Source: Sulfolobus acidocaldarius DSM 639 (GTDB lineage: Archaea; Thermoproteota; Thermoprotei_A; Sulfolobales; Sulfolobaceae). Taken from it: 32,000 bases of DNA. The position numbers were made by a program, and so were the translations under genes. The first letter of the stretch is position 1. Each line of letters begins with the position of its first letter. This document shows, in pieces, positions 14,145 through 14,933 of the stretch. The notes below the pieces were generated by a model, which saw only the letters and a program-made list of their open reading frames with translations, ran no database searches and was not told where the DNA came from. Where the stretch lies: the NCBI RefSeq assembly GCF_000012285.1, contig NC_007181.1, positions 1,740,001 to 1,772,000 on the forward strand. Reading direction: 5' to 3'.

Positions 14145-14933
14145 ATGACACCAGGAATAAAGATAGTCGTGGCGGTCTTCGTAAGTTTGATTATAGGCGC
14201 AATAATAGGATTTGTTATAGGTCAGTCCAGTGTTCCAAACACAGTTGTAACGAACAATGGTGGAGGTCAAACGAATGATCAATATCAAACATTAGAACAA
14301 CAATATCAAACATTACAGCAGCAATATCAAACATCAGAACAACAATTAAACTATTACAGAGATCAATATCAAACATTAGAACAACAATATCAAACATTAC
14401 AGCAGCAATATCAAACATCAGAACAACAATTAAACTATTACAGAGATCAATATCAAACATTAGAACAACAATATCAAACATTACAGCAGCAATATCAAAC
14501 ATCAGAACAACAATTAAACTATTACAGAGATCAATATCAAACATTAGAACAACAATATCAAACATTACAGCAGCAATATCAAACATCAGAACAACAATTA
14601 AACTATTACAAACAGGTTTTATCTTTAAGTTATAGCGACACATTGATATCGAATCAGGTTGTCAATCAGCCTGCTGGTTACTTCAGTTATTGGTGCTATA
14701 CCGCGAACTACACTGGGTATATTGTAGTAAATGTACAGAGTTCAACTACTACCCAAACCTACGCCAGAGTGTATTGGAATGCCTATGGTATAAACTATGA
14801 TAATTCCATTAGTGTAGGTTCCCAAGGAACTGCAGTGTTCCCAGTCCTTCCCTCTAACTACTGTGTAGGGGTAGGGAATAACAACCTCATAAACGGTGCA
14901 ACCGAGACAATAACGATAACATACTATTACTGA
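14145..14933 (+). CDS. Membrane-anchored protein with a Q/Y-rich heptad-repeat stalk and a C-terminal beta-rich domain
   Basis: 262 aa. The N-terminal TM segment is IKIVVAVFVSLIIGAIIGFVIG. Four identical 28-aa units QYQTLEQQYQTLQQQYQTSEQQLNYYRD follow. The Y/V/T/N-rich C-terminal domain has two Cys. TTTATTAAAA lies about 27 nt upstream of the ATG. Confidence 0.75.
   Translation: MTPGIKIVVAVFVSLIIGAIIGFVIGQSSVPNTVVTNNGGGQTNDQYQTLEQQYQTLQQQYQTSEQQLNYYRDQYQTLEQQYQTLQQQYQTSEQQLNYYRDQYQTLEQQYQTLQQQYQTSEQQLNYYRDQYQTLEQQYQTLQQQYQTSEQQLNYYKQVLSLSYSDTLISNQVVNQPAGYFSYWCYTANYTGYIVVNVQSSTTTQTYARVYWNAYGINYDNSISVGSQGTAVFPVLPSNYCVGVGNNNLINGATETITITYYY
14277..14610 (+). repeat. Tandem repeat, 84 bp x about 4, identical copies (coding)
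   Basis: Units start at 14277, 14361, 14445 and 14529. They are letter-for-letter identical until 14610. Each unit contains three caatatcaaacat sub-repeats. Confidence 0.95.

What the first reader, a model, noticed from the sequence alone, without database searches (positions are those of the whole stretch)
14145..14933. Membrane-anchored protein whose stalk is four identical 84-bp Q/Y-rich heptad modules
Units starting at 14277, 14361, 14445 and 14529 are identical base for base. Each encodes QYQTLEQQYQTLQQQYQTSEQQLNYYRD. The 28 aa make exactly four heptads, with Tyr/Leu at a/d-like positions (xYxxLxx; last heptad xLxxYxx). That gives a ~112-aa continuous Gln-rich coiled-coil-like stalk between an N-terminal TM anchor and a beta-rich, Cys-containing head. 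Perfect DNA identity implies very recent expansion or ongoing homogenisation. It also makes the locus prone to slippage or recombination in 28-aa steps, giving stalk-length variation. Tyr at core positions and the Q/Y-rich composition are unusual for a thermoacidophile surface protein. I could not assign the head domain to any family.
Basis: seen in the sequence. Interest (0 to 1): 0.65.

Follow-up and report, generated by a model that had tools for sequence, protein, structure and literature searches.

The report
Archaeal surface protein with repeat-built stalk
This is a real, transcribed gene of Sulfolobus acidocaldarius that the original genome annotation missed; it encodes a membrane-anchored protein that holds a small beta-sandwich "head" on a long helical stalk built from four identical 28-residue repeats, and it belongs to a large, unnamed family of archaeal proteins whose function is unknown.

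Summary
TRF finds an 84-bp unit, 4.0 copies, 100% identical (14277..14610). Only base 83 of the last unit differs. The ORF (14145..14933, 262 aa) is RefSeq SACI_RS11500 of S. acidocaldarius DSM 639. It has no old Saci_ tag and no arCOG.

AlphaFold2 gives four parts:
- a TM helix (4-26);
- a disordered linker (27-41);
- one unbroken helix (42-159, pLDDT >90) with a perfect heptad register (a = Y/Y/Y/L, d = L/L/S/Y);
- an 8-strand jelly-roll head (164-261, pLDDT 96).

The head has no Pfam, NCBIfam or PDB-sequence match. It does define a large unnamed family: 1387 clusters at 50% identity, mostly Bathyarchaeia. The family architecture is TM, then a heptad stalk of 4-211 aa, then a C-terminal head. 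Between close relatives, in five lineages, stalk indels are whole heptads (7 to 84 aa).

Deposited S. acidocaldarius assemblies carry 4, 2 or 1 units, all base-identical. The 1- and 2-unit calls come largely from 101-nt Illumina or k-mer assemblies, where collapse to exactly 1 or 2 units is the expected artefact. Strain polymorphism is therefore unproven.

The most likely role is a binding module held at a set height above the membrane. The 118-aa helix (about 17 nm) is about as long as the SlaB stalk. Function is inferred, not shown.

The parts
14116..14125 (+). A/T-rich TATA-box-like element (TTTATTAAAA) about 20-29 bp upstream of the ATG. This spacing fits a leaderless or near-leaderless archaeal transcript.
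   Evidence: Read directly from the sequence. The spacing rule is general knowledge of Sulfolobus promoters. No transcription start site was checked here.
14145..14933 (+). ORF of 262 aa. It is RefSeq SACI_RS11500 (NC_007181.1 1,754,145..1,754,933), annotated as a hypothetical protein, with no old Saci_ tag and no arCOG.
   Evidence: Transcription is reported in PMC12817955.
14154..14222 (+). N-terminal transmembrane helix (residues 4-26), read as an uncleaved signal anchor (N-in, C-out).
   Evidence: AlphaFold2 helix 4-26. Of 177 family members, 167 have an N-terminal hydrophobic segment, preceded by K/R in the homologues. No [KR][GA] class III (pilin) cleavage motif was seen on inspection.
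14223..14267 (+). Low-confidence, probably flexible linker (residues 27-41, QSSVPNTVVTNNGGG).
   Evidence: pLDDT <50 for residues 27-41.
14268..14621 (+). Continuous alpha-helical stalk of 118 residues (42-159), Q 39% and Y 17%, in an unbroken heptad register.
   Evidence: AlphaFold2 helix 42-159 with pLDDT 94-98. The periodicity z-score is 19.
14277..14610 (+). Tandem array of an 84-bp unit, 3.98 copies, 100% identical. Each unit encodes 28 aa (4 heptads) and consists of four 21-bp sub-units.
14634..14927 (+). C-terminal 8-stranded jelly-roll beta-sandwich head (residues 164-261). It carries the conserved motifs SQPAG, YAGY, SSTT, FPVLP, VGN and GATETxTITYYY-COOH, has Cys184 and Cys240, and has one N-glycosylation sequon (N188-Y-T).
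   Evidence: Head-only AlphaFold2 model with pLDDT 96 and pTM 0.86.
14941..14966 (+). Hairpin (AGAAUGAAGA / UCUUCAUUUU) followed by a U-run, starting 8 nt after the stop codon. It is a likely terminator and lies in the region where a 3'-UTR-derived ncRNA was proposed.
   Evidence: RNA fold with z = -2.7. [quoted passage not shown] The bacterial-type terminator scan found nothing.
14215..14643 (-). Antisense 142-aa 'shadow' ORF created by the stop-free repeat. It is probably not a gene.
   Evidence: It is called as a gene without any family hit in one assembly (L001). There is no other support.

Best explanation
SACI_RS11500 encodes a type II (N-in, C-out) membrane protein that stands in the space between the cytoplasmic membrane and the S-layer.

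Shown by sequence and models:
- It has one TM helix, a short flexible linker, and a rigid heptad-repeat alpha-helical stalk.
- It ends in a compact C-terminal jelly-roll beta-sandwich, a fold class typical of binding modules.
- It is the S. acidocaldarius member of a large, unnamed, mostly uncultured-archaeal family in which the head is conserved and the stalk length is free to vary.
- Stalk length changes by gain and loss of whole heptads.
- In DSM 639 the stalk is built from an 84-bp (4-heptad) unit present four times. This gives a helix of about 118 aa (about 17.5 nm, with about 4.1 nm per unit).

Inferred:
- Slippage or unequal recombination between identical units generated the array, and could expand or contract it.
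- The stalk forms a parallel coiled coil (dimer or trimer).
- The head binds a ligand or envelope partner. Stalk length sets the height at which it does so. In the 4-unit allele this is about the height of the SlaB stalk, just under the SlaA canopy.
For: - Repeat.
- Gene identity and annotation history.
- Transcription: PMC12817955.
- Structure: the full-length model has TM 4-26, helix 42-159 (pLDDT >90) and a beta head. The head-only model has pLDDT 96 and pTM 0.86.
- Heptad register: a = Y/Y/Y/L and d = L/L/S/Y with no break.
- Family size: 32 word-indexed homologues. The exhaustive search found 1387 clusters at E<=1e-3 and 262 at E<=1e-30.
- Family architecture: of 177 head-containing proteins, 167 have an N-terminal TM and 174 end with the head. 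The stalk is 4-211 aa, median 54. Of 136 stalks, 125 have 3.5-residue hydrophobic periodicity with z>3.
- Whole-heptad indels between close relatives in five lineages: 28/56/84 aa in S. acidocaldarius; 7/28/35/63/70 aa in P0006/8/13/15; 14 aa in P0012/14 vs P0018; 14 aa in P0009 vs P0010; 7/14/21 aa in P0038 vs P0039. A second lineage has a fresh 105-bp x 2.7 repeat at 97% identity.
- Head fold: it resembles binding modules, namely p24 GOLD (TM 0.55-0.60), the C-terminal domain of C. perfringens enterotoxin, the ColG collagen-binding domain and CBM6/35/36.
- SlaB comparison: SlaB has a 132-aa C-terminal helix with its TM at 448-470, so about 104 aa lie outside the membrane (PMC10903991).
Against: - No experiment or conserved gene neighbourhood points to a ligand or partner. 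The ten related loci share no neighbours.
- The oligomeric state was not modelled.
- Fold matches are generic: about 10% identity and TM about 0.5-0.6.
- Topology rests on the positive-inside rule, which is weak in the S. acidocaldarius protein itself. It has only K6 before the TM.
- The protein was not found in one proteomics supplement. Those tables list only proteins with UniProt accessions from the Saci_ annotation, which lacks this gene, so the absence is uninformative.
- The match to SlaB length holds only for the 4-unit allele.
Confidence: 0.6

Rival explanations
1. The array is fixed at four units in all S. acidocaldarius. On this view the 2- and 1-unit alleles in databases are assembly collapses, and there is no ongoing stalk-length variation within the species.
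For: - All units and flanks are base-identical in every assembly, so nothing anchors reads inside the array.
- The 47 Yellowstone genomes, including the records deposited as complete (CP013694), were made from 101-nt HiSeq reads with the a5 pipeline (PMC5554439).
- In a de Bruijn graph, the shortest path through a perfect 84-bp array gives 1 unit for k<=83 and 2 units for k = 84-167 (my derivation). These are exactly the two other values seen; no 3-unit allele exists.
- The 1-unit allele occurs mainly in Logan k-mer contigs, a metagenome and drafts.
- CP046615 has flanks indistinguishable from the DSM 639 lineage but carries 2 units.
Against: - Two-unit alleles also occur in complete genomes whose units are marked by a SNP (CP020360, CP020362). 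I believe these are long-read assemblies, but could not verify it.
- Genomes from one pipeline gave both 1 and 2 units.
- Whole-heptad indels between close relatives occur in other lineages where the repeats are not identical.
Confidence: 0.4
2. The protein is of mobile-element or viral origin. It could be, for example, a virus-encoded membrane protein, a receptor-binding protein or a superinfection-exclusion protein. Its repeat variation would then reflect a host-virus arms race.
For: - The best structural match of the head is a 196-aa protein of an 'uncultured archaeal virus' (A0A1S5Y2Z2, TMq 0.89, rmsd 1.4 A, 24% identity, E 5e-12).
- Many weaker matches are phage tail or receptor-binding domains and the STIV A223 C-terminal domain.
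- In a Nitrososphaeria MAG the family gene abuts a tyrosine integrase (L027).
- The gene has no relative in other cultured Sulfolobales among the hits.
- It sits next to an IS200/IS605 element.
Against: - There were no hits in IMG/VR with the family motif, in 50,697 phage records by tblastn, or in PHROGs for the head.
- Most loci lie among ordinary housekeeping genes.
- The gene sits at the same chromosomal position in all S. acidocaldarius strains.
- Head GC (0.41) is similar to the window average (0.40).
Confidence: 0.12
3. The Q/Y-rich repeat is an intrinsically disordered or aggregation-prone low-complexity spacer, not a coiled coil.
For: - The stalk is 39% Gln.
- Tyr at core positions is unusual.
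- Only a monomer model exists, and AlphaFold readily predicts long helices for repeats.
Against: - The a/d pattern is unbroken over about 16 heptads, with no proline or glycine.
- Helix pLDDT is 94-98.
- The same 3.5-residue periodicity appears in 125 of 136 family stalks of quite different composition.
- Indels are restricted to multiples of 7 aa.
Confidence: 0.08
4. It is a cytoplasmic-facing ZapG/DUF1043-like or other named coiled-coil protein, as some RefSeq records call the 206-aa allele ('DUF1043 family protein').
For: - PF06295 ZapG-like hit, E 2e-4, over residues 11-91.
- The RefSeq name appears.
Against: - The score of 21.8 bits is below the gathering cut-off of 33.5.
- The hit covers only the TM plus coil, and dozens of unrelated coiled-coil families score the same.
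- The conserved part of the protein, the head, has no counterpart in ZapG.
Confidence: 0.03

Closest known systems
SlaB, the S-layer stalk protein of Sulfolobales
   Same: - It lives in the same organism and compartment.
- It combines beta-sandwich domain(s), a long coiled coil and a single TM anchor.
- Its extramembrane helix is of similar length: about 104 aa in SlaB against 118 aa here (PMC10903991).
   Different: - The polarity is mirrored. SlaB runs N-terminal beta domains, coiled coil, C-terminal TM.
- There is no sequence relationship.
- SlaB has three Ig-like domains, is a proven trimer, and has no tandem DNA repeat.
p24/TMED cargo receptors (GOLD domain, coiled coil, TM)
   Same: - They give the best PDB fold matches of the head (5gu5, 5azw, 7rrm; TM 0.55-0.60).
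- They share the same three-part logic: a beta-sandwich distal to the membrane on a coiled-coil stalk.
   Different: - They are eukaryotic.
- The chain order is opposite.
- Identity is 9-12%.
- No sequence-profile hit was found, so homology is not established.
Bacterial surface proteins with repeat-built coiled-coil stalks (streptococcal M proteins, trimeric autotransporter adhesins, Braun lipoprotein Lpp as periplasmic ruler). This comparison is from general knowledge and was not tested here.
   Same: - Stalk length is set by in-register tandem repeats.
- Repeat number can change by recombination or slippage.
- Length sets how far the functional end reaches.
   Different: - The anchors and head folds differ.
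- The domain of life differs.
- Here, repeat-number variation within the species is not yet proven.
FlaF/ArlF of S. acidocaldarius (N-terminal TM plus a beta-sandwich that binds the S-layer; PMC4425475, seen)
   Same: It is a monotopic membrane protein of the same organism, with an N-terminal anchor and a pseudo-periplasmic beta-sandwich that binds an envelope partner.
   Different: - It has no coiled-coil stalk.
- It is not among the top 50 fold matches listed for either PDB search.
- It is part of the archaellum operon, whereas this gene stands alone.
TNF-superfamily ligands (type II TM, stalk, jelly-roll head)
   Same: It has the same chain order and topology, with a jelly-roll head.
   Different: The fold matches are weak (FasL and APRIL, TM 0.36-0.38), and there is no sequence similarity.

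Membership tests
Unnamed archaeal 'TM, heptad stalk, GATETxTITYYY head' family (defined here) | C-terminal head of about 100 aa with conserved SQPAG / YAGY / SSTT / FPVLP / VGN / GATETxTITYYY motifs, ending at the C-terminus | tested here: met
   The alignments have 14 invariant and 20 nearly invariant columns. Of 177 members, 174 end within 5 aa of the head. The profile search gave 262 clusters at E<=1e-30.
Unnamed archaeal 'TM, heptad stalk, GATETxTITYYY head' family (defined here) | Single N-terminal TM segment | tested here: met
   AlphaFold2 helix 4-26. Of 177 members, 167 have a hydrophobic segment with Kyte-Doolittle score >=1.8.
Unnamed archaeal 'TM, heptad stalk, GATETxTITYYY head' family (defined here) | Heptad-periodic helical stalk of variable length between the TM and the head | tested here: met
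   (z = 19 for this protein; 125 of 136 members have z>3).
ZapG-like / DUF1043 (PF06295) | Score at or above the Pfam gathering threshold (33.5 bits) | tested here: not met
   21.8 bits over residues 11-91 only.
SMC / Rad50 / other named coiled-coil families | Score at or above the curated cut-off, plus the ATPase head domains | tested here: not met
   36 bits against a cut-off of 567 for TIGR02168. The hits cover only residues 43-158.
GOLD domain (p24/TMED, Sec14L) | Sequence-profile match to a GOLD family | tested here: not met
   The head, and all 21 aligned heads scanned individually, gave no Pfam hit. The PDB profile search gave 0 hits at E<=10.
GOLD domain (p24/TMED, Sec14L) | Same beta-sandwich topology | tested here: inconclusive
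   Foldseek gives TM 0.55-0.60, rmsd 3.2-4.0 A and 9-12% identity. C-CPE, ColG CBD and CBM6 match equally well.
Carbohydrate-binding modules (CBM6/35/36) | Sugar- or Ca-binding residues and a sequence-family match | tested here: not met
   There is fold-level similarity only (TM about 0.5) and no profile hit. Ligand residues were not examined.
Archaeal type IV pilin-like (class III signal peptide) proteins | [KR]-[GA] cleavage motif immediately before the hydrophobic segment | tested here: not met
   This was checked by inspecting MTPGIKIVVAV... and the homologues (KKVVGRxVAIALG...). No FlaFind run was possible.
Contingency (phase- or length-variable) surface loci | Repeat number differs between clonal relatives, verified by reads spanning the array | not testable with these tools

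The most novel reading that the evidence does not exclude
The family may be an archaeal envelope 'ruler' or tether. On this reading the jelly-roll head docks onto the inner face of the S-layer (or another envelope partner). The coiled-coil stalk is adjusted in 1-nm (heptad) or 4-nm (28-aa unit) steps by tandem-repeat gain and loss. This would set or sense the width of the pseudo-periplasm. In S. acidocaldarius the array would be a contingency locus that switches stalk length between clones, possibly changing virus or conjugation susceptibility.
Probability: 0.1. Interest if true: 0.75.

Novelty: new variant of a known kind. Interest (0 to 1): 0.45.

Why it matters
S. acidocaldarius is the main genetic model for Crenarchaeota, and its envelope is being solved at atomic detail. 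This transcribed envelope-protein candidate has no Saci_ number and no arCOG. It is therefore probably missing from studies keyed to the Saci_ annotation, such as microarrays, searches against that proteome and mutant lists.

It is also the only cultured, genetically tractable entry point found here into a family of more than a thousand protein clusters. Those clusters are otherwise known almost only from uncultured Bathyarchaeia, Brockarchaeota and Nitrososphaeria.

The rule that stalks change only by whole heptads is a clean natural example of register-preserving length evolution. It suggests that the height of the head above the membrane is the selected trait. That can be tested directly by swapping 1-, 2- and 4-unit alleles.

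Tried and rejected
- **Named families.** Pfam, NCBIfam and PHROGs scans of the whole protein and of the head returned only sub-threshold coiled-coil noise and nothing for the head. A PDB sequence-profile search with the head alignment gave 0 hits.
- **Viral origin.** The IMG/VR motif scan found no relatives. tblastn of two family members against 50,697 phage records found nothing.
- **Conserved neighbourhood.** Ten related loci share no neighbours.
- **RNA elements.** Rfam on 11-17 kb found no match. The bacterial promoter/terminator scan is not informative for an archaeon.
- **Locus tag.** My guess that the gene was Saci_1942 was wrong. Saci_1942 is the iminopeptidase fragment, and the gene has only the RefSeq tag SACI_RS11500.
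- **Expression tables.** Supplements of four omics papers contain no entry under the tag searched (Saci_1942), which turned out to belong to the neighbouring gene; they were not re-searched for SACI_RS11500.
- **Sequencing technology.** I tried to find how CP046615 and CP020360-62 were sequenced and did not find it.
- **Overlapping duplications in tnpB.** I considered using the 78-122-bp overlapping duplications in tnpB of the draft genomes to read off the assembler k-mer and so test collapse. The lengths are too variable to be decisive.
- **Spurious ORF.** This reading is rejected on family conservation, model confidence and reported transcription.
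Full report
**1. What is in the sequence**

The window is NC_007181.1 (Sulfolobus acidocaldarius DSM 639), positions 1,740,001-1,772,000. This follows from a gene table in the supplement of PMC8578740, whose coordinates match the window ORFs with an offset of exactly 1,740,000.

ORF 14145..14933 (+) encodes 262 aa. Tandem Repeats Finder reports an 84-bp unit at 14277..14610 with 4.0 copies, 100% matches and score 668.

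Base-by-base comparison shows:
- Units 1-3 are identical over all 84 bases.
- Unit 4 is identical for 82 bases.
- Base 83 differs (AGA to AAA, Arg to Lys), and the sequence then leaves the repeat.

In frame, the unit reads DQYQTLEQQYQTLQQQYQTSEQQLNYYR. It is itself made of four 21-bp sub-units. Three are 17-20/21 identical and one is diverged.

**2. The protein**

AlphaFold2 was run with a 24-sequence family alignment (mean pLDDT 88). It gives:
- a TM helix at residues 4-26;
- a low-confidence linker at 27-41;
- a single uninterrupted helix at 42-159 (pLDDT 94-98);
- eight beta strands at 164-261.

The head modelled alone has pLDDT 96 and pTM 0.86.

One heptad register fits the whole stalk, with a = Y,Y,Y,L and d = L,L,S,Y in every unit. 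All other positions are polar, and there is no Pro or Gly.

At about 0.148 nm per residue (textbook coiled-coil rise), the 118-residue helix spans about 17.5 nm, and each 28-aa unit adds about 4.1 nm.

The head has two Cys (184 and 240), which are not conserved in the family, and one N-X-S/T sequon (N188).

Upstream, an A/T-rich TATA-like element lies about 20-29 bp before the ATG. Downstream, a hairpin followed by a U-run begins 8 nt after the stop codon.

**3. Annotation history and expression**

The gene carries only the RefSeq tag SACI_RS11500, annotated as 'hypothetical protein'. It has no old Saci_ tag and 'No arCOG annotation'. It lies between Saci_1942 (a proline-iminopeptidase fragment) and Saci_1943 (an MFS transporter).

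The original annotation therefore missed it. That probably explains why a proteomics supplement that lists its neighbours Saci_1938, 1939, 1941 and 1943 has no entry between Saci_1941 and Saci_1943.

The only papers in the library that mention it are a transcriptome atlas (PMC12817955) and its preprint. [quoted passage not shown] They also report a processing site at its 3' end suggesting a 3'-UTR-derived ncRNA. So the gene is transcribed.

**4. A large unnamed family**

The head has no match in Pfam, NCBIfam, PHROGs or the sequences of solved structures. All whole-protein hits are sub-threshold coiled-coil noise. This includes ZapG-like/DUF1043 (21.8 bits against a cut-off of 33.5), which underlies the RefSeq name of some alleles.

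The homology searches gave the following:
- The word-indexed search found 27 homologues outside S. acidocaldarius with the same head at 41-60% identity.
- An exhaustive profile search of 1.84 billion representatives found 1387 clusters at E<=1e-3 and 262 at E<=1e-30.
- In species-representative genomes, the ten confirmed loci are eight Bathyarchaeia loci (seven MAGs), one Brockarchaeota and one Nitrososphaeria. None is from another Sulfolobales genome. That scan used a single motif, so absence elsewhere is not proven.

The architecture is strongly conserved. Of 177 head-containing proteins:
- 167 have an N-terminal hydrophobic segment;
- 174 end within 5 residues of the head;
- the stalk ranges from 4 to 211 residues, with a median of 54.

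Of 136 stalks of at least 28 aa, 125 show 3.5-residue hydrophobic periodicity at z>3. The S. acidocaldarius stalk is a compositional outlier: Q 39% and Y 17%, against a family composition dominated by S, N, L and Q.

**5. How stalks change length**

Near-exact tandem repeats in the stalk occur in only three lineages. Their periods are 28, 35/28 and 14 aa, all multiples of 7.

Between close relatives (head identity >=78%), the stalk indels are:

| Lineage | Stalk indels (aa) |
|---|---|
| S. acidocaldarius | 28, 56, 84 |
| P0006/8/13/15 | 7, 28, 35, 63, 70 |
| P0012/14 vs P0018 | 14 |
| P0009 vs P0010 | 14 |
| P0038 vs P0039 | 7, 14, 21 |

The P0006 locus carries a 105-bp x 2.7 repeat at 97% identity. 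A relative with an identical head has no such repeat.

Register-preserving indels are what a coiled coil would demand. A disordered spacer would not require them.

**6. Is copy number really polymorphic in S. acidocaldarius?**

Deposited assemblies carry the following unit counts:

| Units | Assemblies |
|---|---|
| 4 | the window; the independent NBRC draft BHWZ01 |
| 2 | CP046615, CP013694, N8; many LP** drafts; CP020360 and CP020362, each with one SNP in one unit |
| 1 | LPSJ01, a JGI metagenome, Logan contigs |

Every unit and both flanks are otherwise base-identical.

There is a serious caveat. The 47 Yellowstone genomes were made from 101-nt reads with the a5 pipeline (PMC5554439). Such reads cannot span a 166- or 334-bp perfect array.

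In a de Bruijn graph, a collapsed array of m units is consistent with all true k-mers whenever k < 84m. The shortest path therefore yields 1 unit for k<=83 and 2 units for k = 84-167 (my derivation). These are exactly the two other values observed, and no 3-unit allele exists.

My conclusions are:
- Four units in DSM 639 is established, because two independent assemblies agree.
- The 1-unit allele is probably an artefact.
- The 2-unit allele is undecided.

I could not find the sequencing technology of CP046615 or CP020360-62.

**7. What the head looks like**

Foldseek against the PDB gives many matches at TM 0.5-0.6 and about 10% identity. All are jelly-roll beta-sandwich binding modules:
- p24/TMED GOLD domains (the best matches);
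- the claudin-binding C-terminal domain of C. perfringens enterotoxin;
- the ColG collagen-binding domain;
- CBM6/35/36;
- the STIV A223 C-terminal domain;
- TNF-like ligands, more weakly.

Against predicted viral structures there is one outstanding match: a 196-aa protein of an 'uncultured archaeal virus' (TMq 0.89, rmsd 1.4 A, 24% identity, E 5e-12). This is effectively a family member.

Evidence for and against a viral or mobile-element link:
- For: the viral match above, and a tyrosine integrase next to the family gene in one Nitrososphaeria MAG. This shows that some members travel on mobile elements.
- Against: searches of IMG/VR, of phage GenBank records and of PHROGs were negative.
- Against: most loci are housekeeping contexts with no shared neighbours.

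**8. Most likely function**

Shown:
- the gene is transcribed;
- the family and its architecture are conserved;
- the stalk has heptad periodicity;
- the head model is high-confidence;
- stalk indels come in whole heptads.

Inferred:
- N-in/C-out topology. The K/R residues before the TM in homologues fit the positive-inside rule.
- A parallel coiled coil. Family stalks have I/V at a and L at d; here the residues are Y at a and L at d.
- A head that acts as a binding module, held at a height fixed by the stalk.

SlaB, the S-layer stalk of this organism, has a 132-aa C-terminal helix with its TM at 448-470 (PMC10903991). About 104 residues therefore lie outside the membrane. The 118-residue helix of the 4-unit allele would place the head at about the level where SlaB meets the SlaA canopy. 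This is a suggestive coincidence, not evidence of interaction.

No ligand or partner can be named from the data.

**9. Comparison with known systems and novelty**

In design it resembles several systems:
- SlaB (mirror polarity);
- p24/TMED (GOLD, coil, TM; opposite chain order);
- TNF-type type II ligands;
- bacterial repeat-built coiled-coil surface proteins.

It is a member of none of these by sequence. The GOLD and CBM resemblances are at fold level only.

It is best described as a new variant of a known kind: a membrane-anchored coiled-coil stalk carrying a binding head, with repeat-driven length change. It represents an unnamed archaeal family and an overlooked gene in a model organism.

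Interest is moderate (0.45). The structural observation is solid and the family is new to curation. However, the function is unknown, and the most exciting claim, length switching within the species, is not yet supported by data that exclude assembly collapse.

Noticed in passing
window 11553..13918: An IS200/IS605 TnpB gene (Saci_1941, 12082..13335, minus strand) and a co-oriented 40-aa zinc-ribbon ORF (13336..13458) lie inside a proline iminopeptidase gene. That gene is split into a C-terminal fragment (11553..12071) and an N-terminal fragment (13532..13918, Saci_1942). PMC12817955 reports an omega-RNA at the tnpB 3' end.
   Followed up: partly
L003-L008 around the tnpB 3' half (window about 12080..13230): Natural-isolate assemblies show overlapping duplications of 78-122 bp relative to the window, and TnpB ORFs of 419-450 aa or broken ORFs. 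These are probably contig-joining artefacts of the contiguated Illumina drafts, but real tandem duplications are not excluded.
   Followed up: partly
window 14215..14643 (minus strand): A 142-aa antisense ORF exists only because the repeat lacks stop codons in that frame. It is called as a gene (123 aa, no family) in the NBRC draft (L001 3071..3442). It is likely spurious.
   Followed up: no
window about 14611..17933: Every other S. acidocaldarius assembly, including the independent DSM 639-equivalent NBRC draft, has at least one mismatch to the window in the 3.5 kb downstream of the array. If it is the same position in all, that would suggest a base error or stock-specific SNP in the 2005 reference. 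The position was not located.
   Followed up: no
window 14934..15010: A hairpin plus U7 lies just after the stop codon. It is in the region where PMC12817955 proposes a 3'-UTR-derived ncRNA from this gene. There was no Rfam match.
   Followed up: partly
L027 5836..7721 (Nitrososphaeria MAG JAWDMM010000006.1): A family member lies directly next to a tyrosine integrase with a zinc ribbon, preceded by a run of small unknown ORFs. This is a possible integrated element carrying the gene.
   Followed up: partly
BFVD A0A1S5Y2Z2 (uncultured archaeal virus, 196 aa, annotated 'Prefoldin'): Its structure is nearly identical to the head (TMq 0.89, rmsd 1.4 A). It is a family member in a contig classified as viral. 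The 'Prefoldin' name is probably a coiled-coil artefact. The sequence could not be retrieved here.
   Followed up: partly
L028 381..668 vs L029 6001..6618: A second lineage (P0006 vs P0015, identical heads) differs by 70 aa. The difference is due to a 105-bp x 2.7 repeat at 97% identity in one metagenome contig, which is absent in the other.
   Followed up: yes
P0032 (459 aa, ENA metagenome): This protein has a Q/Y/N-rich heptad stretch (QQYQQLQQQYHNLENQYQNLENEYQQLQQQYQN) much like the S. acidocaldarius stalk, but a different, larger C-terminal region without the family head. Similar stalk composition may recur in other proteins.
   Followed up: no
window 8995..11416: A divergent pair of genes, aldehyde dehydrogenase (Saci_1938) and FAA-hydrolase-family protein (Saci_1939), lies here. 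From my own knowledge these are the alpha-ketoglutarate semialdehyde dehydrogenase and 2-keto-3-deoxy-pentonate dehydratase of pentose degradation. A 14-bp x 2 direct repeat lies at 10495..10522, just inside the 5' end of the Saci_1939 ORF.
   Followed up: no
window 25466..25517: A 21-bp x 2.5 imperfect tandem repeat (78% matches) was reported by TRF. It was not examined.
   Followed up: no
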